DNA of 64,000 nucleotides, taken from the IMG/VR virus record IMGVR_UViG_3300014205_000174; one strand, given 5' to 3'. Positions within the stretch are counted from its first letter, which is position 1; every line of letters starts with the position of its first letter. Shown here piece after piece: positions 34,401-60,323 of this stretch. This DNA is from a virus. Lineage: Duplodnaviria > Caudoviricetes. The notes beneath the pieces were generated by a model, which was not told where the DNA came from, did not search any database, and saw only the letters and a program-made list of their open reading frames with translations. The translations under genes were made by a program, and so were the position numbers.

Positions 34401-35224
34401 CAAGGTCATACAAGCTTGGTGACAAATACAGCGAAGACTTCGATTATGATGGGCTTATGGCCACTGGTTTATCCGCAGATGCAACATGGAGTATTGAAGA
34501 TTTAAAACTCCTGCAAAATAGTTTTACCGATGTAAATTATCATAAGGAGGCAGCATTGGTTGGTTCGGTTATAAAGGCATTGGGAAGAGGAGGGAAGCCT
34601 GCGGCAAAAGCACATATTAAATATCTTCACGAAAAGCTGATAGATAATATTACTGACGGCGCTGACGACCAATTACAGGATGGTGATGAGGTTTACGAAG
34701 TGTCATTGGAAGCTGTCCCAAATCACGACTTTGGCCCGGAAGCTCACGAGAGTTCTGTGCGTATTGCTAAGCATATGGTACCTGCAAAGAGCATAGATGA
34801 CGCTGTGCGCATAGTTCATGCGTTTTGCGTGGACAATGACCTGGGCGGCGGCAATTTTATCAATGCTAAGCTATATGTTGCTGGTGTTGAAATCGGACAT
34901 ATTTCATACAATGGGCGCGTGTGTGGCCTGAATGGTAAGCCTATGGTTTATGAAAAAGGTGGCGTATTGTCAGTAAGCAGTCTTCGTAGTAAAACAAAGG
35001 AGGAGCTTGCCCAGATGTACCAGGATAAGTTTGGACTTCCGGCTCTTCACCAAGATATAGGGACGCTGATTGCGGCATTGCACTTTGAAAAGCGCATAAA
35101 GAACCTGACTGACGCGGAGCGTGAATTTGCTGCCGATATTGAAGAAAAAATTCAGGATGCGGAGGATGCTATTGTGAAAGAGAATGGCGGGACAGTTGGC
35201 AAAACAGACAGCATCGCTACATAA
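28409..35224 (+). CDS. giant modular polyprotein (2271 aa) with at least 17 GG separators; includes a DUF6496-like module
   Basis: YADGG x4, MARGG x2, LAEGG, LKDGG, MAAGG and others; KFGRVMHEFKEGKL..KVTDRGQALAIAYS. Confidence 0.8.
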   Translation: MTTTIRTYTIADYHSNNSGQHYGCFDVELSWDKNEKWCVRAGGDLDKYAPLYKNTHNRSIKDALAIYKRQVAKAKKDSGKEGEEWMTSRYDEYVEADAKDNASLAEGGQVGPAPEMTEDQRIASIIIQQLGGRNRLNIMTGAYNFYAVKKGVAFRIKNQKANYIKIVLEPTDLYAIEIGRIRGNTYKIVYEHSGIYNDQLKGIIEKYTGMYLSLKDGGRIDVNDDDHNQDLEHLKKEAIANAKRYGRNKAFAYLVLVEKEYDGVKPTRVDIQLKSGFELMPQSYRDAFDIIYDTSAENEEKKSAPAAPSSSESFKPTVGQVFHSNSSGKDFEITDIDEDGWITTYQVGKPHQIQYMDKSNTPSFLMYMRRGAFELINKDATPISDSDYICRIGSEIVIKKLEYDRNVKMKLMQIIPLKEGGIEAGMGKYTYKFVGSKDRVKYITESALRGMIYANQIVFIKQLEDGGPVDMTEREFLDKYFGVNVFPKEITDMFEIENKSSSNKDKVAAYIDDLKQRGFTVKKKSYSDFVSIMGAKKKMAAGGPVSSMDDEILDYIFRNYPDKEFNDKEFISMIHAIFSTKIENSTISDKDIQAAMNRSLVSKAKQYKTEFGKTVLGFESISAKGFEQYQGCPIIYFSELVDISDSFMTCSGILFEGEIVNGSECFDDWFANEEDALDVAYKMANDVPVYEGGNEPYADGGELERKAAAVRKAVEIAGIANSNNIRASNLTLKQYSEKIFDATKIAYPVSDLALAYEAMKSTGYADGGQVTGAAKVLVQGYPYFLKKIDSTHLYVTNTENAPGMASHVGQFKDAKGDQAFYNDIKDWLQGKIDIEGREYADFYADGGQVDGAIKVSIEGYPYYLKKIDVTHLFVSNNERMEGTCYHIGQFRTQNGDQTFYNDIKDWLKGKIDIAGRVYEKFYADGGELERKAAAIKTAIEIAEIANKNNIRASHLTLKQYSEKIFDATKIAYPIADLALAYEAMKSTGYKNGGELPAGEFKKAEKETFEIYDEESKFVRGESFWFAYKELNDGKDILCVSYGKNLPDDSLPPYSCSVDICPLQNILSYQNDEIKTLADAVRQFWIEMIPTDRFTISYFKTLQEAKEFAEDKINISEAVVLSKEVKWMKPDSLDYILFILNNGWLIKGDCQGGDSLLFKVYEPTTGLDQHESVSEFIIDEKNTMMGLVISRKSMTRLESIPEAYKCIYSALPELKEVGNQTPFGLFVELKDMSPAMFDEAVINQYMLGTKESLDANFWSDLAHLWKTNNLRFENNKWVNTGLWRTGAFKESNTNPKTGHELTDVDVTVICSLANSYNVTVADIKTNNPDFTTFEIYNQRGNNFKAGGQIPGHFASGKNMEVFGYQTQNFDISKALCNLFTDIINNSSHTEQWCIKHAAIEFDDVLSMEKYVVRTGEAIPGGFKEATKAALLGCKLLQKGGYDEVASTTIMSDHLLEIARRLPKQYRDGGVVKQHILQIGNDAVALDALIHGDSQLEDWVQSRIARAATDMGDVVNYLNYELDGDGIGGDGKEPHVVKYIDLDGSDDQEPKEIIVEAVTPHEAREIVQEELGDDGIVTGAVLIDDDYKAPEADIPAVAVSEPAPQEMMARGGLIEKETDYAPYVIAEGVAFTLMDKHFPESRDQQAAEYAEEMADYLYKTAQKQYKDSNATLKHSIGKGSNIGRDRFYGIMEGWGELYMLKHPFTPVKASASMARGGMIEKETGYFPDALASLVADEIVDDKFPDSDPGDATAYADEMAEHLVTTAELMYKNSNSSLRKAIGSGSEEGRDKFAALMKVWAELWMVDHPFEETALAYAKGGEVRNLKFGRVMHEFKEGKLTDRWGNKVTDRGQALAIAYSSSSPKMKDGGEVNGWVKQKEWHGNPSLGYESWKKNFKTPGGRAVPVYLFGKEGKGKNTIIYTQDEQGKTIPSGNTFDAPDWSYCVSAGPNSDYTHSGGFYPETPSLQEAMDKIDALDKIKRLIYESGGTIELVENTYADGTRSYKLGDKYSEDFDYDGLMATGLSADATWSIEDLKLLQNSFTDVNYHKEAALVGSVIKALGRGGKPAAKAHIKYLHEKLIDNITDGADDQLQDGDEVYEVSLEAVPNHDFGPEAHESSVRIAKHMVPAKSIDDAVRIVHAFCVDNDLGGGNFINAKLYVAGVEIGHISYNGRVCGLNGKPMVYEKGGVLSVSSLRSKTKEELAQMYQDKFGLPALHQDIGTLIAALHFEKRIKNLTDAEREFAADIEEKIQDAEDAIVKENGGTVGKTDSIAT
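30497..31372 (+). repeat. A-B-B-A module duplication (201, 237, 237, 201 nt)
   Basis: Each unit starts at YADGG (30497, 30698, 30935, 31172); the last ends before YKNGG at 31373. Confidence 0.85.
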
Positions 35225-35294: not shown

Positions 35295-36635
35295 ATGCCA
35301 CTTTATAAGTCCAGAAAAATACGATTAGAGCCGAACAACAAGCAGCTTACGCTACTCCGTAAGCATGCAGGTTGTGCGCGGTATGCGTATAACTGGGCCA
35401 TTGCAATAAGCGAGCGGATATACGAAGAATATAAAATAACCATCACAGCCATAGACCTAAACAAAATGTTTGTGAAGATGGAGAAGTCGCAGCATAACTG
35501 GCTGTATGAAGTCAGCAAGTGCGCTACACAGCAGGCCATACGCAACTACGAGACAGCGAGAAAGAACTTCCACAGGATACAGAAAGACAGTGGGTACACT
35601 AAGAAGCGTCTGCTAAATAAACGCTCCGAAGACGGAAAGAAAGTATACATCCTTGAGGGTCTGCCGCAGAAAAAGAAAAAAAACAAGAGCCGCGATAGTT
35701 TTTACCTTGAGAATGATGGCGTAAAACCAATACAAACAAAAAAGGGGTATATTAAACTGCCAAAGATAGGTTGGGTGAGAACGTCCGAGGATATTTCACC
35801 GGAAGTGTCATTCCTTAGCTGCACCATAAGTAGGCGTGCTGATGACTGGTACGTAAGCTACAAGTACGAGTTTGAGCCTACGGAGCACAGAAACATAAGA
35901 ACTGTTGGCGTAGACCTTGGCATAAAGACACTAGCTACACTGAGCACCGGTATAACCTTTGATACCCCCAAAAGGTACAAAGAGCTTAATCGCAGACTGC
36001 GCCGCGAGCAGAAAAGCCTGTCTCGTAAGTATGAATCTTGGAAGCTGCACAAAAACGACCAGCGTCCACAGAGCCAAAATTACAAGAAGCAAAAAACCAA
36101 AATAGCAAAGTTGCATAAACGCATTGTAGACCATCGCTTAGATGGCCTGCATAAGCTCACTACCCACCTCACCAAAAACCACAGTGAGATAGTTATTGAG
36201 GATTTGAATATAAAGGGCATGTTGAGCAACCACAATCTGGCCAGAAGTATTGCCAATGGGAGTTTCCGTGAGCTGCGCCGCCAGTTGAAATACAAAGGCG
36301 ACTGGTATGGCTGTAGAATTACCGTAGCTAACAGGTTCTTCCCGAGCAGTAAGATGTGCAGTGTCTGCGAAGCAATCAACAAGACCCTTAAGTTAAAAGA
36401 CCGGGAGTGGGACTGCGAGGGTTGCGGCACCCATCACGACCGTGATAATAATGCATGCCAGACACTGGAGCAGTACCCAACTATGCATGCATATAAATAT
36501 TTGCCGGTTAGCCAAACCGGATATGCGGAGAGTTCCACCGTGAAAGCCTGTGGAGCCGGGAGTTCTGCGAGAGTTTCGCATAGCCTGGCTATTAGTACGA
36601 AGCAGGAAGTAAACACTAAAAACCCGCGTGAGTAG
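35295..36635 (+). CDS. tnpB: TnpB RNA-guided nuclease (IS607/IS605-type), no TnpA
   Basis: N-terminal RLEPNNKQ..HAGCARYAYN; RuvC GVDLGIK, IVIEDL, DRDNNA; Zn finger CSVC/CEGC. Confidence 0.92.
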   Translation: MPLYKSRKIRLEPNNKQLTLLRKHAGCARYAYNWAIAISERIYEEYKITITAIDLNKMFVKMEKSQHNWLYEVSKCATQQAIRNYETARKNFHRIQKDSGYTKKRLLNKRSEDGKKVYILEGLPQKKKKNKSRDSFYLENDGVKPIQTKKGYIKLPKIGWVRTSEDISPEVSFLSCTISRRADDWYVSYKYEFEPTEHRNIRTVGVDLGIKTLATLSTGITFDTPKRYKELNRRLRREQKSLSRKYESWKLHKNDQRPQSQNYKKQKTKIAKLHKRIVDHRLDGLHKLTTHLTKNHSEIVIEDLNIKGMLSNHNLARSIANGSFRELRRQLKYKGDWYGCRITVANRFFPSSKMCSVCEAINKTLKLKDREWDCEGCGTHHDRDNNACQTLEQYPTMHAYKYLPVSQTGYAESSTVKACGAGSSARVSHSLAISTKQEVNTKNPRE

Positions 36636-36657: not shown

Positions 36658-36797
36658 GGCAAGAAAGCAATACTTGTTGCTTCAGGCTTATTGTTCGGGG
36701 CCATAGGCCTTGTGCTATTACTGATGTGGAGCGTGAATTAGCGGAGCATGTTGAAGGTGAGATTCAGAAATCTGAAGATGCGTGTATAGGCAGTTGA
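36658..36797 (+). pseudogene. two diverged gene fragments at the TnpB guide position
   Basis: 36658-36720 matches 36886-36948 (20/21 aa, 48/63 nt); 36720-36782 matches 35108-35170 (12/21 aa). Confidence 0.85.
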
Positions 36798-36834: not shown

Positions 36835-37023
36835 ATGCAACCAGAACTAATCGAAAAGATAAAAGACATAGACCTTAGTAAGGTAGGCAAAAAAGCAATA
36901 CTTGTCGTTTCTGGGCTGCTCTTTGGCGCGATAGGCCTTGTGCTGCTGAATAAATTCGTAGAGGATAACTTTGATTTCCGAGTGGACAGAATTTCCAACA
37001 AGCCACCAAACGATAAGAAATAA
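36835..37023 (+). CDS. small single-TM protein
   Basis: KKAILVVSGLLFGAIGLVLLNK. Confidence 0.7.
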   Translation: MQPELIEKIKDIDLSKVGKKAILVVSGLLFGAIGLVLLNKFVEDNFDFRVDRISNKPPNDKK

Positions 37024-47280: not shown

Positions 47281-48894
47281 ATGACGACCATCTTATTAAA
47301 AATAAGCAACAGCAAGGACGTAGGCCGGAGCATACTGGATATGCAGCGGAACTACTCCGGCATGTTCCGGCATATGTACAGACATGCGGAGTTGCTTAAA
47401 GATAAGGGGTTTGAGATGGAGTGCCGCAATCGTTTTGGCCTGGATAGCTGGATGTACCGGAGCTGCCTGGTAGACGTCCTTACCAAGCTGCAACAGATAA
47501 AGACCATCAACAAAAATAAGTCAGACCTGCTGGAATCGCTTGAGCAGGAATTAACCGAACTTAATGCGGCTACAGAAAAAGGCATAAAGTACCGCCGTCA
47601 CAAGTTCAGCGTTATGCGCAAGATTGCACACCTGCGGCAATCAATAGACCGGGAAGTTACCTTTGGCGGACGCCAGACACTGCGTAAGATATCTTATCTG
47701 CACAATACAACCACGCGCACAAGGAAAGAAAAAGATAAAAAGCAGCGGGACATAACCGCGTGGACTGAAAAGTATCATCAAACCAGATTGCAGCCTATAA
47801 CTATTATTGGCGAGGCCCCACAGCGCTCAAACCGAAAGTTTGACTTCGATTTCACGAACAAGCGCGTAATATACAAGCCATGCATGGGCATAAAGATACC
47901 GGTACTCTTCTACTGCTCGCAGGGCCAGTCCAGGCAACTGGAGCAACTTCAGGGCCTTATTGGCAATCTGGCAATAACCGTTCAACTTGCCGGCGATAAG
48001 CTTTACATCGTCTATGACGAAGAGAGTGTCGCGGGCTACGCCTTCAATGATAATGCCTGCTCCCGAGAAATGAGGCTGATACCAAAAGGAAGCGATAAGC
48101 AGGTGTTCAGGGACTGTAAGAAGAAGTGGCACAAAGAGCGCGAGGAGCGCATGTTATCGGGCAAGAAAGAGAGCAGGGTCATATCCTTTGACCTGAATCC
48201 GGAATATATAGGCGTGGCGGTACTGGAAAAGATAAGCGGCACCAACTACCGCATCCTCCATAAGATAGTATATAACCTTACCGGCCTAAATACCCGCATG
48301 GGGCTATCATCATCAAACCCTACGCAGGTCTACCAGAATAACAGGCGCGACCATGAGATTAAGGAAATATGGAAACAGATATTCAACATTGCCAAACACT
48401 ATAATGTAAGCGGCTGTGCATATGAAGACCTTGAATTTAAGAGCAAAGGCGTGAATGACGCCCCGAAGCAGGCCAATAGGAAAACAAAGAATATCTGGCA
48501 CAGGGAGCTTACATTAAAACTGATTACTAAACACTGCTCTGTACTGGGCATAAAAAAGATTGCGGTGAACGCATGTTACACTACGTTCATCGGTAATATC
48601 AAGCATCCTTACTTCGACCCATTAAATGCCGCTATAGAAACCGGCAGGCGGGGAATGATGCAATTTGAAGGTGGATTCTACCCATCGTTGGAGAGAACAG
48701 ACCTTGACACCATGTCCCGTTTGTTCGGGTTGGATGTTCAGGGTAAAACTATTTCTACGTGGTTGGATGCACACAAAGCTTTCAAAACTGCGCAATTGAG
48801 ATACCGCAGGGACTTGCAGCAATGTAAGTTCGAAGAAACAAATCTGTTAACTCATAAAAATCCAGTCAAACAACTGAATTTTTATACAAACTAA
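47281..48894 (+). CDS. divergent TnpB/Cas12f-like RuvC nuclease without a Zn finger
   Basis: ISFDLNPEYIG (RuvC-I), AYEDLEF (II), VNACYTTFIG, DPLNAAIETGRRG (III). Confidence 0.75.
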   Translation: MTTILLKISNSKDVGRSILDMQRNYSGMFRHMYRHAELLKDKGFEMECRNRFGLDSWMYRSCLVDVLTKLQQIKTINKNKSDLLESLEQELTELNAATEKGIKYRRHKFSVMRKIAHLRQSIDREVTFGGRQTLRKISYLHNTTTRTRKEKDKKQRDITAWTEKYHQTRLQPITIIGEAPQRSNRKFDFDFTNKRVIYKPCMGIKIPVLFYCSQGQSRQLEQLQGLIGNLAITVQLAGDKLYIVYDEESVAGYAFNDNACSREMRLIPKGSDKQVFRDCKKKWHKEREERMLSGKKESRVISFDLNPEYIGVAVLEKISGTNYRILHKIVYNLTGLNTRMGLSSSNPTQVYQNNRRDHEIKEIWKQIFNIAKHYNVSGCAYEDLEFKSKGVNDAPKQANRKTKNIWHRELTLKLITKHCSVLGIKKIAVNACYTTFIGNIKHPYFDPLNAAIETGRRGMMQFEGGFYPSLERTDLDTMSRLFGLDVQGKTISTWLDAHKAFKTAQLRYRRDLQQCKFEETNLLTHKNPVKQLNFYTN

Positions 48895-54698: not shown

Positions 54699-54724
54699 TT
54701 AATTAGTATTAAAAATATTTTATA

Positions 54725-55234
54725 ATGGTGAAACCAATAAATCTTCGTCCGGATGAACAGGGGTATAGCAATATGAACGGCATAGAGCGCGTCGCTAATA
54801 ATGTTATAGATACGCTACGCGCTCCATTTGTTGCGAAGAAAAATAAAAAGTCGAAGCCTGAAGCGGACTCTGGAGAGTCTGTTTCTACCGGAGATTCTAT
54901 GGCGACTAAAAAGATTACACCAGTTATTGCTCCGACTACAGTAACGGAGCCGGAGGATAGTTGGCCGGAGGGGTGGTCATTGCCTGTATATCCGTATAAG
55001 GACGAAGAAGTTATTGCTCCGTCACCGAATAAAATGAATGAAGTTGACAGAGTGAGCACGATGATTTTTGGTAAGCCGGCGAATGAAGTCGGAGATTATT
55101 ATACTTCAAATATTTCCGGTAAGGGGAGTGGAAAAAAACCAAATAATGCATGGATTGGCTGGGTTATATTGGCGGTGGTTGTTGGGGCGGGAGGATTTTA
55201 TGCTTACAAAAAGTTTCATAAAAAAGACGCGTAA
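54725..55234 (+). CDS. C-terminal TM protein
   Basis: YSNMNG motif; TM followed by KK. Confidence 0.7.
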   Translation: MVKPINLRPDEQGYSNMNGIERVANNVIDTLRAPFVAKKNKKSKPEADSGESVSTGDSMATKKITPVIAPTTVTEPEDSWPEGWSLPVYPYKDEEVIAPSPNKMNEVDRVSTMIFGKPANEVGDYYTSNISGKGSGKKPNNAWIGWVILAVVVGAGGFYAYKKFHKKDA

Positions 55235-55608
55235 TGATTAAAAAAGAAATTTTCGGAGCGGGTATGACAACCCCATTTTTAAATGCATCTGGCGATAGTA
55301 CCAATGGATTTAGAATGGACTTGTATCCATTAGGCACTGAGCCGCCATATACTAATCCGTATCTACCACCACTACCTACTGAAGGGACTGCGGTAGATGC
55401 TGATAAACAACATAATGAAGCGGCTGACGTGCACATTGCAATTCAGGACTTTCTTCTCGGTAAGCCAGATGTTGATATGGATGCGCCGAGGTCAAAAAAT
55501 AAAAATAGCAGTACTCCAAATAAAAAACCTAATAATACGCCGTATATTGTAGCGGGTGTGGCGGTAGTCGTGATAATTATTGGAATTGTTGTTATTGTAA
55601 AAAAATAA
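55234..55608 (+). CDS. C-terminal TM protein
   Basis: FLNASG motif. Confidence 0.7.
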   Translation: MIKKEIFGAGMTTPFLNASGDSTNGFRMDLYPLGTEPPYTNPYLPPLPTEGTAVDADKQHNEAADVHIAIQDFLLGKPDVDMDAPRSKNKNSSTPNKKPNNTPYIVAGVAVVVIIIGIVVIVKK

Positions 55609-55611
55609 ATA

Positions 55612-55959
55612 ATGCCAGATTTTTTAAACCAGGATGGTACATCGTTTAATTGGGGGGCAATTGGCGGCGGCTTAAATGCCCTTGGCGGCGTTGCCGGACA
55701 ATACTTTTCGGCACAAGCTAATGCGGATGCAATGAAAGCTATTGAGGGTGGTAGAAATGCAGCATCGAAAGAAATAGCAGAAATAAATGCACAGGCGGCA
55801 ATTGAAATTGCAAGAAATCAAACTAATGCTGCTCTTGCGGCGGCAAGAGCTCAATCGGGGTCTGGGGCAGGAATGGGAATAAGCGGTACGACTTTAATAA
55901 TAGGCGGTGTAGTAGCACTAATAGCCACAATCGCTATTACTGTAGCTTTAATGAGATAA
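55612..55959 (+). CDS. Ala/Gly-rich C-terminal TM protein, paralogue of 62366
   Basis: FLNQDG motif. Confidence 0.7.
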   Translation: MPDFLNQDGTSFNWGAIGGGLNALGGVAGQYFSAQANADAMKAIEGGRNAASKEIAEINAQAAIEIARNQTNAALAAARAQSGSGAGMGISGTTLIIGGVVALIATIAITVALMR

Positions 55960-55968
55960 ATTTAACAG

Positions 55969-56730
55969 ATGAAAAAATCAATCATTTCCGATTTAGACGC
56001 ATTAAATATAACAGGGGCTAAAGATAGCCAATGGTTATATTCTCCTGGCAAAAAGGGAGTAAGGAGTGATATTGACTTTTTGAATGCAGATGGTGATGGT
56101 ACTTTCCGTTTTGATATGTACCCGAATCAGGAATCAGTAAAGGTTCACCCATTAGACATGACGCCAGGAGGCGAAGGTACTTTTCGCTTCGATTACGATA
56201 GCACCCCGGAACTTTATGACCAACATCGCGATACTGGTGGCTTTAATTTAATGGACTGGGGTAGCGAATTATTGCGTGGGAGTGACAGTAATAGCACGTC
56301 AGGTGGCGGTGGTGATTTTAATTTAATGGACTGGAGTAGCAGTTTGCTTAAGCCAGATAGTCAGCCAGGCGGATGGACTAAGCCGCCAAATGAGACAATA
56401 AATAAATTAGAGCCAGCGCCTTTAGAGAAGATGAATACCACGCCCAAGGCGCAGGGTAAAGTAGCTACATTACCTAAAACATGGATAACTGACCTGTTTA
56501 AATCAGTTGGCAATGCTGCCAGTCAGGCACTTTCGGCGGCGGCAAAAAATAGTGGTCAGTCTGCTCAAAAGCAAACACCGCAGAAGCAACAGCAAACTGC
56601 TGGTACCGCCGGTGCATCTGCGGGTGAAGCAACAAAGCCAAATACGTCGCTTATAATAGCGGTTGTGATTGGATTAGGTGTAGTAACTACCGTTGGAGTT
56701 GTGTTGTTTACTGGTTCAAAAAAGAAATAG
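55969..56730 (+). CDS. C-terminal TM protein with internal repeats
   Basis: FLNADG; GTFRFD x2; FNLMDW x2. Confidence 0.75.
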   Translation: MKKSIISDLDALNITGAKDSQWLYSPGKKGVRSDIDFLNADGDGTFRFDMYPNQESVKVHPLDMTPGGEGTFRFDYDSTPELYDQHRDTGGFNLMDWGSELLRGSDSNSTSGGGGDFNLMDWSSSLLKPDSQPGGWTKPPNETINKLEPAPLEKMNTTPKAQGKVATLPKTWITDLFKSVGNAASQALSAAAKNSGQSAQKQTPQKQQQTAGTAGASAGEATKPNTSLIIAVVIGLGVVTTVGVVLFTGSKKK

Positions 56731-56779
56731 TGAGTAACGTCATAGACGCGTAAAAAAACATTAATTTAGCTAAGCAAAA

Positions 56780-58069
56780 ATGTTAAAATCGTTCAAATAC
56801 AGGTTAGATTTAAATGAGGAACAGAAAACGTTCTTCAATAAATCATTTGGCTGCGCAAGGGTGGTGTACAACCGCTGTCTTGACCGCCGAAAGGAACTGT
56901 ATGCGGACAACAAACAGACAATAAGCGCCTACGATTTAATTAATGAAATTACGTTACTAAAAAATACAGAAACGTATTATTGGCTTTCGGAAGTTGTTGC
57001 TCAAACACTACAGTGCGCTGTAATGAATCTCGACACCGCCTATAAGCAATTCTTTAATGGTGGTTTTGGTTTTCCAAAATACAAAAGTAAGTATGCTCGT
57101 CAGAGTTGCCAGTTCCCACAAAATGTAAGAATTAATTTTGATAACAACAAGGTGTGGTTCCCGAAACTCGGCTGGACACGAACACATATCAGCCGCCAGT
57201 TTACCGGCAAGATAAAAACCACTACCGTCAGTAAAAATGCTTCCGGCTATTACTACGTGAGTATCCTTGTTGACAATTCAAAGCCATTACCCGAGAAATC
57301 ACCGGTAGCGGCAGATACGGCCATAGGTATAGATGTAGGTGTGAAAACCCTTGCTACCTTCAGCGATGGCACAAAGATGGAGAATCCCAAGTACTACGCC
57401 AAGTCGCAACAGAGACTGGCAATATTGCAAGAACGTTTAAGCCGTAAGGATAAGAACCGGTATCCAACGTCAACAACGGACAAAAGCAGTAAACGGAGAG
57501 TGAAAGCTAAAAAAGCGGTTGCGAAACAGCACCAAAAAATCGTAAATCAGCGAACCGACTACTTACATAAACAGTCCACGAGAATAATCCGTGAGAACCA
57601 AACGATTATAATCGAGGACTTGAATATAGCTGGCATGACCAGCAGGGTGAAAACAAAGAAGCAGGACGAGAATGGCGCGTATCTACCAAACGGCCAGGCT
57701 GCGAAGTCCGGACTGAACAAAGCAATACTTGACGTAGGTATAGGTCAGTTCTTTGACATGCTGGAATACAAAGCAGAATGGTACGGTAGGAACTTAATCC
57801 GTATCGGACGCTTTGAGCCCAGTAGCAAGACCTGCTCAAACTGCGGTTACGTCAATCAAGCCCTTACACTTAAAGGCAGAGAGTGGATGTGCCCTGTGTG
57901 TGGAGTAAACCACGACCGGGACATAAACGCTGCTGTCAACGTTAAGGACATGGGGCTAAAACAATACTACTCAGAAATGAGAAAGGAATTTAAATTAAAG
58001 ACAGGGGAGGGCATCCCCAGTGTGGACAGTTCGGCTATAGATGTAAAATCTGGGGCCAAAGCTGTCTAG
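56780..58069 (+). CDS. tnpB: TnpB RNA-guided nuclease (IS200/IS605 family), no TnpA
   Basis: FKYRL..FGCARVVYN; GIDVGVK, IIIEDL, DRDINAA; CSNC/CPVC. Confidence 0.93.
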   Translation: MLKSFKYRLDLNEEQKTFFNKSFGCARVVYNRCLDRRKELYADNKQTISAYDLINEITLLKNTETYYWLSEVVAQTLQCAVMNLDTAYKQFFNGGFGFPKYKSKYARQSCQFPQNVRINFDNNKVWFPKLGWTRTHISRQFTGKIKTTTVSKNASGYYYVSILVDNSKPLPEKSPVAADTAIGIDVGVKTLATFSDGTKMENPKYYAKSQQRLAILQERLSRKDKNRYPTSTTDKSSKRRVKAKKAVAKQHQKIVNQRTDYLHKQSTRIIRENQTIIIEDLNIAGMTSRVKTKKQDENGAYLPNGQAAKSGLNKAILDVGIGQFFDMLEYKAEWYGRNLIRIGRFEPSSKTCSNCGYVNQALTLKGREWMCPVCGVNHDRDINAAVNVKDMGLKQYYSEMRKEFKLKTGEGIPSVDSSAIDVKSGAKAV

Positions 58070-58142
58070 TCAGAAACAAGCGTAGGCAACTACCTTAAAG
58101 TATGACATGCCACGGCTCTGATGCGTCGCAGGCGGTATAAGA

Positions 58143-58202
58143 CTTGGCTTAGGAATACTTACTACCGTTGGTGTTGTTTTGTTTACCCGTAAAAAGAAAT
58201 AA
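58143..58202 (+). pseudogene. diverged duplicate of the 3' end of gene 55969-56730 at the TnpB guide position
   Basis: LGLGILTTVGVVLFTRKKK* versus IGLGVVTTVGVVLFTGSKKK* (56668-56730). Confidence 0.85.
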
Positions 58203-58207
58203 TTGCG

Positions 58208-58453
58208 ATGTCTCTATTGCCTAAAAACTGGTTCAATGATTTAGTGAAATCCGTTAGCGATTCGGCCTCAAAGGCAATTGAAAAAGCCGCAAACGGAAAT
58301 GAAAATCCTGAGAAGGAAGAAAAAGAAGAAACAAAAGTAGTTGTGGTAGAGAAGGAAGTAATATCAACTCCAGTAATTATTTGTACATTAGTTGGCGTTG
58401 CAATAATTGCAGGCGTAGTAGTTCACTTATTCAAGAACAAAAAAAATAATTAA
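58208..58453 (+). CDS. C-terminal TM protein
   Basis: LPKNWFNDLVKSV resembles LPKTWITDLFKSV of 55969. Confidence 0.7.
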   Translation: MSLLPKNWFNDLVKSVSDSASKAIEKAANGNENPEKEEKEETKVVVVEKEVISTPVIICTLVGVAIIAGVVVHLFKNKKNN

Positions 58454-58454
58454 A

Positions 58455-59279
58455 ATGGAGACATCAACCAAAGTAATAATAGGGTCTGTAGTTTTCCTTT
58501 CTTTAGCCGGCGTGGCGTACTTCGCGTTTGGAAGAAAGAAAAACCAGTCTTCGGATGGTACAATCTATCCGGAGCCCGGCGGCACAGGTGGCTTTAATCA
58601 GCCGCCTGGAAAAACTACACCTATTGCCGACCCGACCACGGACGCTCCTTATGTGAACACTAAGGCCAGCCCCCAAAACCAGGCTGTTATCGTAGTGAAT
58701 AAAAATGCACCGGTAGCATACGTTGATTTCGGTAATATTATGTCGGCAAATGCGCAGCAGGTAGTAGAAGAAAAACCACCTAAAAAGGAAGTCGGAATCC
58801 CTTTTGAGCAACGTAGTTTTGATTGGGCCGACAAGAATGATTTTCCGGCGGCCACATTGATGTTAATTGACGGCATTACAAGTAAGCTGTCTTGGCAGAA
58901 GACATTTATGAATGATTACGAATATAAGGTGAAGAATGAAAAAGACAAGTATATGGGTGGCTTGTTCTACAAGGTACTAGACAGGATGTTTGATGAAGGG
59001 TGGAAGCATCGCACCTGTAGCAGAAGTAGGAATGCGGGAGATTTTTTAAATAGAACAAGTACGCAAATAAAAGCAATACTAAATTTACCAGAGTCGGATA
59101 TCCCAACAAGAAATCTTGTCTGCGGGCAGCCTACCATAGATTTCTTACAGGCATATGCGAACTGTAAGGATTGGGAGGCCATTGATACTGCTAACAGAGA
59201 CCCGTATGCCCCACAACATGCGGTATCGTTGGCAATGCGGTTTGTAGCGCAATACAAAAGAATGATGGGGTTTAGTTAG
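58455..59279 (+). CDS. N-terminal TM protein
   Basis: METSTKVIIG..FGRKK. Confidence 0.7.
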   Translation: METSTKVIIGSVVFLSLAGVAYFAFGRKKNQSSDGTIYPEPGGTGGFNQPPGKTTPIADPTTDAPYVNTKASPQNQAVIVVNKNAPVAYVDFGNIMSANAQQVVEEKPPKKEVGIPFEQRSFDWADKNDFPAATLMLIDGITSKLSWQKTFMNDYEYKVKNEKDKYMGGLFYKVLDRMFDEGWKHRTCSRSRNAGDFLNRTSTQIKAILNLPESDIPTRNLVCGQPTIDFLQAYANCKDWEAIDTANRDPYAPQHAVSLAMRFVAQYKRMMGFS

Positions 59280-59338
59280 TACTGTATTGCATTTTAAAAA
59301 CTGTAAAATACTTTTTATATATTTAAATAAACATCGCA

Positions 59339-59632
59339 ATGGAAAAAAGAACGAAAATCATAATCGGAGTTGTTAGTACGCTATTGGTATCAATAGTTGT
59401 GTACGCTATTGTCAAAGCGCAATCTGGCTCAGGCGCAGTGACGTCATCCGTACCGGAATTTGATGCGGATACGCAAATAGACACAGGTGCGATAGACACT
59501 AGCACGATAGTGAATACCAATGCGCCTATACAGAAGATAAACCCGTATGCACCTACGCCAGCGTCCGAGAACCCACCACCAATACCTGGAGGTATAGGGT
59601 ACTATAAAAATAAGCCACGCATGGGAGCATAA
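59339..59632 (+). CDS. N-terminal TM protein
   Basis: MEKRTKIIIGVV. Confidence 0.65.
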   Translation: MEKRTKIIIGVVSTLLVSIVVYAIVKAQSGSGAVTSSVPEFDADTQIDTGAIDTSTIVNTNAPIQKINPYAPTPASENPPPIPGGIGYYKNKPRMGA

Positions 59633-59645
59633 AACATACTTCAAC

Positions 59646-60287
59646 ATGAGCAAACATATAATAGGAGATAGTGACGTAGCTAATAGGGCAATCATTGGCG
59701 GTGCCGATGACCAGTGGGCTAATAGCTTTGGTGATGTTCTGCTCAATGTACTGAGCGGCGGCGTTACCGGGGCTATAACGGTTCATAATAATGGTGGAGA
59801 TGCCGACAGTGTGATGCGGCATGTTCTTACCGGAGGCATGTCATTTACGGCAGATGAAACCGGTATAAGTAAAGGGTTCAAAACTAAAACACAAAGAGAA
59901 TCGGATGCGTGGAATCAAAAAAACCCATACACGCTTTTCCCTCTTCCAGCTAACCCTACATGCCGGAACATGACCGACTTAAAAAACAGGCTCATTTTAG
60001 AACAGGCTTCAGCGCAATATACGTATACCGGGAAAATTATAAAGTATATACAGGAGATAGATAAAGCGCTATCTGATAACAATTGCAAAAAAGCACTTGA
60101 GGATGAGACTGCGGCCAACCAGCAGAATCGTTTATTAAGTGCTGCACAAGCGGCGCTGGGTGTAAACACCAAGTCGTCCGCCTCATCTGGTTCCGGGATG
60201 GGGTTGTCGCCGCTGTCTATTGCATTAATAGTGGGTGGCGTTATGATGACCGCAGTCCTGATAGTTGCATTAAAGCCTGCGAGCTAA
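59646..60287 (+). CDS. C-terminal TM protein
   Basis: Ser/Gly linker followed by a TM. Confidence 0.7.
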   Translation: MSKHIIGDSDVANRAIIGGADDQWANSFGDVLLNVLSGGVTGAITVHNNGGDADSVMRHVLTGGMSFTADETGISKGFKTKTQRESDAWNQKNPYTLFPLPANPTCRNMTDLKNRLILEQASAQYTYTGKIIKYIQEIDKALSDNNCKKALEDETAANQQNRLLSAAQAALGVNTKSSASSGSGMGLSPLSIALIVGGVMMTAVLIVALKPAS

Positions 60288-60323
60288 AACAATATTTATT
60301 TCATTTTTAAAATAATAAGCAAA

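What the first reader, a model, noticed from the sequence alone, without database searches (positions are those of the whole stretch)
56668..58202. Second TnpB flanked by alternative versions of the same gene end
Seen: gene 55969 ends IGLGVVTTVGVVLFTGSKKK* before tnpB, and an orphan LGLGILTTVGVVLFTRKKK* follows the presumed omega RNA region. The resident copy is preceded by GTGAT, similar to the TTGAT TAM of ISDra2. Inference: the element sits inside the gene but supplies a recoded replacement 3' end, so the host gene stays intact and immune and the old end becomes the guide. The same pattern at two different TnpBs with no transposase suggests a general RNA-guided homing strategy.
Basis: partly seen in the sequence, partly recalled or inferred. 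Interest (0 to 1): 0.8.

Follow-up and report, generated by a model that had tools for sequence, protein, structure and literature searches.

The report
Phage TnpB element beside duplicated gene end
A transposase-less RNA-guided nuclease element in a large uncultured phage sits just behind a membrane-protein gene and is followed by a leftover, differently spelled copy of that gene's last 20 codons; the repeat is real and the same layout recurs at related elements in other phages, but here the leftover copy is not the nuclease's guide.

Summary
56669-56730, the true 3' end of gene 55969-56730, and 58144-58202, an orphan, are 75% identical. They keep the same frame and the same stop position and differ mostly by synonymous changes.

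Comparison with the closest TnpB relatives places the element's ends at about 56733 and 58111. The resident copy therefore lies outside the element, which starts 2 nt after the stop codon. GTGAT is not next to the left end. The guide is 58112-58132, not the orphan, which begins 31 nt further on behind an abrupt junction. That 21-mer matches nothing in the window. It has one exact hit, in an unrelated tailed-phage contig, and this is a lead only.

The general architecture is real. Two other phage loci, L042 and L005, show a complete gene, then the TnpB element, then an old 3' part that starts exactly at the right end. For L042, an element-free relative (L114) carries a single gene copy.

My best reading is that unequal recombination or template switching at the element's right end between diverged phages leaves a displaced old gene end and re-programs the guide. 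This resembles the fungal mitochondrial cassettes that pair an endonuclease with a replacement C-terminus. No empty allele was found for this locus.

The parts
55969..56730 (+). Host gene: a 253-aa protein with internal short repeats and a C-terminal membrane anchor. It is intact.
   Evidence: ORF list. No Pfam family. No homolog other than itself among 5.8 billion proteins.
56669..56730 (+). Resident copy (U): the functional last 20 codons plus the stop codon (56728-56730).
56733..56779 (+). Left end of the insertion sequence. The family's left-end motif, with a GTCATA core at 56739-56744, is followed by an inner part that has decayed relative to relatives.
   Evidence: The motif is shared with L102, L002a, L002b and L005. 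Those relatives have 17-24 bp terminal inverted repeats, while the window's repeat is degenerate.
56780..58069 (+). tnpB, 429 aa, ISDra2-like. The RuvC Asp/Glu/Asp residues and the four zinc-ribbon cysteines are conserved.
   Evidence: Pfam PF12323, PF01385 and PF07282. Invariant columns D185, E279, D381, C352, C355, C371 and C374 in 20 homologs. ISDra2 TnpB structures 8bf8, 8ex9 and 8h1j at E 7.5e-63.
57997..58111 (+). Omega-RNA scaffold. It overlaps the 3' end of tnpB and ends at the right end of the element (58111).
   Evidence: Conserved with L001, L102, L002a/b and L005. The consensus fold has 21 pairs, 11 of them with compensatory changes. Right-end positions are listed.
58112..58132 (+). 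Predicted guide: the 21 nt directly after the right end.
   Evidence: The pairs L001/L102 and L002a/L002b are near-identical up to the equivalent point and unrelated beyond it. The window holds no other copy with up to 3 mismatches. One exact hit in viral contigs, L112 2229-2249. No hit in metagenome contigs.
58133..58143 (+). Rest of the 31-32 nt filler between the right end and the orphan copy.
   Evidence: No significant similarity to the region upstream of U (p 0.38) or to anything else in the window.
58144..58202 (+). Orphan copy (D): 19 codons plus a stop codon (58200-58202). There is no start codon in frame, and an in-frame stop lies at 58119-58121.
58208..58453 (+). Next gene, 81 aa. 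It is itself a paralog of the C-terminal third of the host gene.
   Evidence: tblastx of 56461-56553 against 58208-58300: 45% over 31 aa, E 6e-7.

Best explanation
A 1.38-kb, TnpB-only, ISDra2-like insertion sequence (about 56733-58111) lies 2 nt past the stop codon of a phage membrane-anchor gene. It has an apparently intact nuclease and a conserved omega-RNA scaffold.

The 60-nt orphan behind it is the displaced 3' end of a second, long-diverged version of the same gene, most likely the allele of another phage lineage. I infer that the duplication arose at the element's right end by unequal (illegitimate) recombination or replication template switching between co-infecting diverged genomes. 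Only products that duplicate essential sequence, rather than delete it, survive. The result is a complete gene, then the element, then the old 3' part.

The omega-RNA guide is simply whatever DNA abuts the right end, so each such event re-programs TnpB. In L042 and L005 the old part abuts the right end directly and so is the guide, while the resident copy is mismatched and therefore immune. In this window a 31-nt filler was captured between the right end and the old end, as a 59-nt filler was at the other TnpB. The present guide, 58112-58132, therefore points at something other than the gene.

Shown: the repeat, the element's ends, the guide position, the recurrence, and one empty allele for L042. 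Inferred: the recombination mechanism, cleavage activity, the TAM, and any homing.
For: - Element ends and guide position. L001 and L102 are about 97% identical through the scaffold and unrelated immediately after the right end. L002a and L002b behave the same way. The left-end motif starts at 56733.
- Abrupt junction. The U/D alignment stops at 56669/58144. The 31 nt to its left show no significant similarity to the colinear gene region (p 0.38).
- The copies diverged as coding DNA. pS/pN is 0.46/0.12 here. dS/dN is 2.1/0.25 in L042, 1.4/0.42 in L005 and 0.93/0.35 at the other window TnpB.
- Recurrence. In a flank-repeat screen of 91 loci the outliers are L042 (score 205), this locus (62) and the other window TnpB (39). 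tblastx adds L005 at E 8e-6.
- L042. The full gene plus 48 nt of trailer, then the element, then a copy starting at an internal Met codon immediately after the inferred scaffold end (less sharply defined than in the TnpB-2 family).
- Element-free allele. L114 has one gene copy followed directly by the next gene. It is 80% identical to the upstream copy and 77% to the downstream copy, and its flanks are 85-88% identical. The first 20 nt after the right end in L042 match L114 at 17/20 but the phage's own upstream copy at 12/20.
- L005, which belongs to the same TnpB family. The upstream gene's stop codon overlaps the first base of the left end, and the old part starts right after the right end.
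- The nuclease looks intact, and the scaffold shows covariation.
Against: - No relative of the host gene or its neighbours, and no empty allele, was found for this locus, so the origin of either copy is untested.
- L018 shows that a flank repeat can also come from pre-existing tandem paralogs with the element inserted into one of them. That route is not excluded here, because the neighbouring genes are paralogs.
- The template-switch mechanism is inferred from the final structures only.
- The TAM is unknown. Left flanks in the family are AT-rich but share no clear motif.
- The window's left end is partly decayed, so the element may be a fixed relic whose guide has no current role.
- Only 4 of about 97 loci examined show the layout.
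Confidence: 0.55

Rival explanations
1. The mobile unit is the replacement 3' end plus TnpB. It sits inside the gene. The orphan old end is the guide, GTGAT is the TAM, and the recoded resident end gives immunity.
For: The repeat and its coding-like divergence are real. L042 and L005 do have the old part at the guide position, with a mismatched resident copy.
Against: The guide position is 58112-58132, and the orphan starts 32 nt after the right end. The resident copy and GTGAT lie outside the left end, which begins at 56733. Similarity ends abruptly at 58144, and there is an in-frame stop at 58119-58121.
Confidence: 0.08
2. A remnant of a tandem paralog. A second, closely related gene once followed the host gene. 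The element inserted in the spacer in the canonical way, and a later deletion removed all but the last 60 nt of that paralog. The guide would then be ordinary flanking DNA.
For: L018 shows this type, with tnpB inside the second of two tandem methyltransferase genes. The next gene, 58208, is a paralog of the host gene's C-terminal third. The region is a run of small anchor-protein genes. The filler contains an ATG 9 nt after the right end.
Against: No 5' remnant of such a paralog lies to the left of the element, unlike in L018. In L042 the element-free relative has a single gene copy. In L005 and L042 the old part starts exactly at the right end.
Confidence: 0.22
3. A re-targeted weapon. The 21-nt guide was captured from, and is aimed at, a gene of an unrelated co-occurring tailed phage similar to L112. 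TnpB-2 would then act in competition between phages, as virus-borne CRISPR mini-arrays do.
For: There is one exact match, to 58112-58132, inside a 140-aa ORF next to capsid genes in L112, and it starts exactly at the first base after the right end. The much larger metagenome collection gave no hit, so the word is rare. The ATG inside the right end is in the frame in which L112 reads the match.
Against: This is a single hit. By my rough estimate, 0.02-0.2 chance hits are expected in a collection of that size. The 5 nt upstream of the L112 site are not AT-rich, unlike the left flanks of the family. There is no other similarity between L112 and the window. The host and habitat of L112 are unknown.
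Confidence: 0.12
4. A metagenome assembly chimera that joins two strains' versions of the gene end around the element.
For: The copies look like alleles.
Against: A second, independent assembly (a Logan contig of 32.5 kb) is identical over 55600-58900, with flat depth of 34 and no alternative contigs, joints or variants.
Confidence: 0.03

Closest known systems
ISDra2-type IS200/IS605 TnpB with right-end omega-RNA (OMEGA systems; PMC8612924, PMC10097598, review PMC13565253)
   Same: The TnpB domains and catalytic residues match. The scaffold overlaps the 3' end of the gene. The guide is the flanking DNA directly after the right end. The left flank is AT-rich. The nearest solved structures are ISDra2 TnpB.
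   Different: There is no TnpA. Relatives carry 17-24 bp terminal inverted repeats, which is not typical of the family. The element sits in a phage and is flanked by two diverged copies of a gene end, whereas canonical insertion makes no duplication.
Fungal mitochondrial mobile endonuclease ORFs that carry a foreign C-terminus (Allomyces macrogynus atp6; Glomus atp6, atp9, cox2, nad3; PMC3630166)
   Same: The host gene is completed by an inserted, diverged C-terminal copy. The endonuclease gene follows, and the native C-terminus is left downstream as an unexpressed duplicate. The copies differ mainly at synonymous sites, at 64-81% nt identity there and 75% here.
   Different: The nuclease there is a protein-only LAGLIDADG or GIY-YIG enzyme whose specificity is fixed. 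Here it is RNA-guided, so the displaced segment itself can become the guide, as in L042 and L005. In this window the guide is not the displaced end. The native copy has not been shown to be closer to empty alleles.
Intronless homing and marker exclusion by free-standing homing endonucleases of T-even phages, and nuclease genes at recombination boundaries (review PMC13565253)
   Same: A nuclease gene sits between phage genes. Self and non-self would be told apart by sequence differences in a nearby gene, and flanking DNA of the donor would be co-converted.
   Different: No partial gene duplication is part of that model. Cleavage of a rival allele has not been shown here.
IStrons (group I intron fused to an IS200/IS605 or IS607 element with TnpB; PMC10690162)
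   Same: They are another way for a TnpB element to sit in a gene without destroying it.
   Different: IStrons restore the gene by RNA splicing. Here the gene is restored at the DNA level by a second copy of the displaced part. No intron family was found (Rfam).

Membership tests
IS200/IS605-type TnpB-omegaRNA element | TnpB with HTH, RuvC (OrfB_IS605) and zinc-ribbon TNB domains and an intact Asp/Glu/Asp triad | tested here: met
   Pfam E 2e-23, 2.5e-23 and 6.5e-17. Invariant D185, E279, D381 and four Cys. ISDra2 TnpB at E 7.5e-63.
IS200/IS605-type TnpB-omegaRNA element | A structured omega-RNA scaffold overlapping the tnpB 3' end and ending at the right end, with the guide taken from the adjacent flank | tested here: met
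   Conserved block with 11 of 21 pairs covarying. Relatives diverge exactly after the right end. No Rfam family matched.
IS200/IS605-type TnpB-omegaRNA element | Y1 HUH transposase TnpA in the element | tested here: not met
   The 1.38-kb element holds only tnpB. It is a TnpB-only form.
IS200/IS605-type TnpB-omegaRNA element | Subterminal hairpins rather than terminal inverted repeats; insertion 3' of a defined TAM without duplication | tested here: inconclusive
   Relatives have inverted repeats of 17-24 bp. Left flanks are AT-rich without a shared motif. The flanks here carry a diverged duplication.
IS607-type TnpB element | Ends in GG, G-rich TAM (AGGAG or GAGGG), no inverted repeats (PMC13565253) | tested here: not met
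   The right end finishes in GCC, the left flanks are AT-rich, and inverted repeats are present in relatives.
Endonuclease plus replacement C-terminus cassette (fungal mitochondrial type) | Inserted functional C-terminal copy, then the nuclease gene, then the native C-terminal copy left downstream | tested here: met
   The same order is seen in L042 and L005.
Endonuclease plus replacement C-terminus cassette (fungal mitochondrial type) | The native copy is closer than the inserted copy to the allele of element-free relatives | not testable with these tools
   No relative of this gene was found. In L042 the result is inconclusive: 80% for the upstream copy against 77% for the downstream copy relative to L114.
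Endonuclease plus replacement C-terminus cassette (fungal mitochondrial type) | The nuclease targets the element-free allele at the junction while the resident copy is immune | tested here: not met
   For this locus the guide (58112-58132) is unrelated to either copy. The sequence relation is met in L042 (17/20 to L114 against 12/20 to its own copy) and in L005. Cleavage itself was not tested.

The most novel reading that the evidence does not exclude
Phage-borne TnpB elements form composite, RNA-guided homing cassettes. These consist of a replacement gene segment plus the element, and the displaced original segment, or any DNA captured at the right end, becomes the guide. A single recombination event would then restore the host gene, make the carrier immune and re-aim the nuclease at rival alleles. 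In this window the new aim may be an unrelated competitor phage. Repeated rounds would also shed 3' gene fragments that can become new small genes, such as the paralogous anchor-protein genes around this locus.
Probability: 0.25. Interest if true: 0.8.

Novelty: new variant of a known kind. Interest (0 to 1): 0.6.

Why it matters
TnpB is thought to persist by cutting the empty site its own transposon left behind. How transposase-less copies in phages persist, and how their guides change, is an open question.

A recurrent layout in which a TnpB element is bracketed by a complete gene and the displaced old part of that gene was seen in several phage loci, with an element-free allele found for one of them. 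This suggests that recombination at the right end can repair the host gene and re-program the guide in the same event. It would be an RNA-guided counterpart of the endonuclease-plus-replacement-C-terminus cassettes of fungal mitochondria. It also gives concrete, testable donor and recipient pairs, for example L042 against L114.

For this particular locus the result is more modest. The duplication is a real recombination scar, but the element is not aimed at it.

Tried and rejected
Searches for relatives or an empty allele of this locus all came back empty:
- GenBank phages, blastn on 54700-60300: no match.
- Viral contigs, searched with the host protein and with the 274-aa neighbour: none.
- The 5.8-billion-protein search with both proteins: only self.
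- A U/D-spanning DNA pattern in viral and metagenome contigs: 0 hits.
- A degenerate pattern for the anchor peptide in viral contigs: 0 hits.
- No whole genome is held for this window.

Sequencing runs:
- Only one run holds the region, and it is probably the source of this DNA.
- It is kept as contigs and showed no joints or variants.
- No RNA holder is listed.

Pattern scans with the scaffold anchor:
- In viral contigs and in genome contigs they gave only chance hits with no TnpB context.

Other negative results:
- The guide 20-mer had 0 hits in metagenome contigs.
- Extending the U/D homology leftwards into 58113-58143 was rejected. The score was 7 against a null mean of 6.3 (p 0.38), and the best matches elsewhere in the window were no better than chance.
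- Rfam and tRNA scans of the window found nothing.
- The third RuvC-like ORF (47281-48894) has no flank repeat.
- L116, L117 and L118 have no flank repeat.
- The L007 flank match is AT-rich and was treated as trivial.
- A search for relatives of the L042 gene in viral contigs returned only L042 itself.
- No paper describing TnpB elements with replacement gene segments was found in three literature searches. That does not prove none exists.
Full report
CONTEXT. The window is part of a 211-kb uncultured phage contig. The length comes from the protein-cluster records, and earlier notes on the same genome describe it as a large, possibly tailless Bacteroidota virus. The region around the finding is a run of co-oriented small genes, many of which encode proteins with a hydrophobic anchor.

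THE OBSERVATION.
- Gene 55969-56730 encodes a 253-aa protein that ends in a membrane anchor and a Lys-rich tail.
- TnpB is 56780-58069 and carries the three TnpB Pfam domains.
- Behind it, 58144-58202 repeats the last 20 codons of the gene. Identity is 75% without gaps, and the gapped alignment has a single one-codon indel and ends at the stop codon in both copies.
- The orphan lies 5 nt before the next gene, which is the spacing typical of this region.
- I aligned left flanks against right flanks for 91 TnpB loci. Mismatched pairs gave a mean score of 21.8 (sd 3.5) and a maximum of 45 in 1500 trials, whereas this locus scores 62.
- Substitutions between the copies are mostly synonymous or conservative (pS 0.46, pN 0.12).
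- An independent assembly of the only run that holds the DNA is identical across the region and shows no alternative paths.

That includes the statement that the other TnpB in the window (35295-36635) has a similar copy of its upstream gene's 3' region behind it.

WHERE THE ELEMENT BEGINS AND ENDS. TnpB-2 has thousands of homologs. The closest are in phage-like contigs: L001 and L102 (about 65% protein identity), L002 (two copies) and L005.
- Right end. L001 and L102 are about 97% identical through the last 110 nt of the scaffold and become unrelated immediately after a shared terminal block. The two L002 copies behave in the same way. In the window that point is 58111.
- Scaffold. The block before the right end folds into a conserved structure. 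Eleven of its 21 predicted pairs show compensatory changes, as expected of an omega-RNA scaffold.
- Left end. L102, L002a, L002b and L005 share a terminal motif that is the inverse complement of the right end, giving terminal inverted repeats of 17-24 bp. The window has the outer part of this motif from 56733, with the conserved GTCATA core at 56739-56744. Its inner part has decayed.

The element is therefore about 56733-58111. It starts 2 nt after the host gene's stop codon. The nuclease looks intact: the RuvC triad and the four zinc-ribbon cysteines fall in invariant columns, and the nearest solved structures are ISDra2 TnpB.

- The resident copy lies outside the element, and no relative carries anything like it.
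- GTGAT is 64 nt upstream of the left end and is not in TAM position.
- The guide-coding DNA is the 20-21 nt after 58111, that is 58112-58132.
- The orphan copy begins at 58144. To the left of that point, similarity to the gene drops from 75% to background (5 of 21 by eye; local alignment no better than shuffles, p 0.38). There is also an in-frame stop at 58119-58121.

The 31 nt between the right end and the orphan are thus a filler of separate origin, and the orphan is not the guide. The filler has no other copy in the window.

The 20-mer after the right end has one exact match in viral contigs. It lies inside a 140-aa ORF next to the capsid genes of an unrelated tailed-phage contig (L112). 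The match is 21 nt long and starts at the first base after the right end. The much larger metagenome collection gave no hit. By my rough estimate a single hit of this kind has a chance expectation of a few hundredths to a few tenths, and the 5' flank in L112 is not AT-rich like the family's left flanks. I record it as a lead, not a finding.

THE LAYOUT RECURS ELSEWHERE. The flank screen picked out L042 with a score of 205.
- Structure of L042. A 225-aa gene plus 48 nt of trailer is followed by tnpB. After tnpB comes a 153-aa ORF that is a 73-75% identical copy of the last two thirds of the same gene plus the same trailer. The next gene follows.
- Element-free relative. A search of protein representatives found a 221-aa relative on contig L114, where the gene is single-copy and directly followed by the next gene, with no TnpB.
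- Segment identities. L114 aligns with the whole upstream copy at 80%. From an internal Met codon onward it aligns with the downstream copy at 77%. The gene's 5' part and the next gene are 85-88% identical.
- Guide relation. The downstream copy starts immediately after the inferred scaffold end (less sharply defined than in the TnpB-2 family). Its first 20 nt match L114 at 17/20 but the phage's own upstream copy at only 12/20.

A protein-level screen added L005, which belongs to TnpB-2's own family. There the stop codon of a 74-aa gene overlaps the first base of the left end. The DNA directly after the right end is a diverged copy of codons 22-74 of that gene, in frame with an ATG inside the right end.

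In all four cases the copies differ mainly at synonymous sites. They therefore diverged as coding sequence, as alleles of different lineages would. They did not diverge as a decaying in-place duplicate.

One further outlier, L018, is of a different kind. There tnpB sits inside the second of two tandem methyltransferase genes. Three more family loci show nothing.

MECHANISM. The complete-gene, element, old-3'-part order is the order described for fungal mitochondrial mobile endonuclease ORFs that bring a foreign C-terminus and leave the native one downstream (PMC3630166).

In two family members the left end abuts the natural stop codon of the complete copy. The right junction is either flush (L042, L005) or carries a short filler (31 nt here, 59 nt at the other TnpB in the window). 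For these reasons I favour an origin by unequal recombination or replication template switching at the right end between co-infecting diverged genomes. Selection would then keep only the products that duplicate essential sequence rather than delete it. Whatever lands next to the right end becomes the guide. This step is inference. Cleavage, the TAM and homing were not tested.

For this locus the main rival is a remnant of a tandem paralog, as in L018. I cannot exclude it, because the neighbouring gene 58208-58453 is itself a paralog of the host gene's C-terminal third.

WHAT COULD NOT BE DONE. No relative of the host gene or its neighbours, and hence no empty allele of this locus, exists in any collection I could search. 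No RNA data are available.

VERDICT.
A displaced old gene end and a recurrent architecture are real. However, the element does not contain the resident copy, GTGAT is not its TAM, and the orphan is not its guide.
- The class of structure, an RNA-guided nuclease element paired with a replacement gene segment in phages, appears to be a new variant of a known kind and deserves a systematic census and a bench test.

Noticed in passing
window 56461-56553 vs 58208-58300: The next gene (58208-58453, 81 aa) is a paralog of the C-terminal third of the host gene: 45% over 31 aa, E 6e-7, plus a similar anchor. This raises the possibility that earlier rounds of 3'-part displacement seeded the small anchor-protein genes here.
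   Followed up: partly
window 35108-35169 vs 36720-36781; 36658-36716 vs 36886-36944: The other TnpB (35295-36635) has a 73% copy of the upstream gene's 3' region behind it. Between the nuclease gene and that copy lies a 59-nt piece that is 80% identical to an internal part of the next gene. This is the same order as here: right end, filler, old end.
   Followed up: partly
L002 465-487/1718-1740 and 3028-3051/4294-4317; L005 3726-3742/4994-5010: ISDra2-like TnpB-only elements in phage contigs have 17-24 bp terminal inverted repeats, and the changes in the two ends are matched between family members. This is unusual for IS200/IS605, which is described as lacking such repeats.
   Followed up: partly
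L005 5006-5143; L002 4306-4320; window 58101-58140: An ATG inside the conserved right end is in frame with the downstream coding sequence in L005 (the old gene part) and in L002b (the next gene's start). In the window it is in the frame in which L112 reads the 21-nt match. The right end may supply a start codon for displaced downstream parts.
   Followed up: no
L112 2229-2249 (minus strand), ORF 1981-2403: There is an exact 21-nt match to the predicted guide 58112-58132 inside a 140-aa ORF beside the capsid genes of an unrelated 15-kb tailed-phage contig. The two sequences share nothing else.
   Followed up: partly
L018 1667-2955 and 4405-4464: tnpB is inserted into the second of two tandem DNA cytosine methyltransferase genes. 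Forty-three N-terminal codons are left on one side and about the last 20 codons on the other.
   Followed up: partly
L002 531-1727 and 3110-4303: One phage contig carries two related TnpB elements 1.4 kb apart. Their terminal blocks are identical but their guides are unrelated.
   Followed up: no
window 56087-56193 and 56235-56340: The host gene contains two pairs of internal direct repeats, 76% and 90% identical, that code for repeated short peptide motifs.
   Followed up: no
window 47281-48894: The 537-aa RuvC-like ORF noted by others has no Pfam match and no direct repeat between its flanks.
   Followed up: partly
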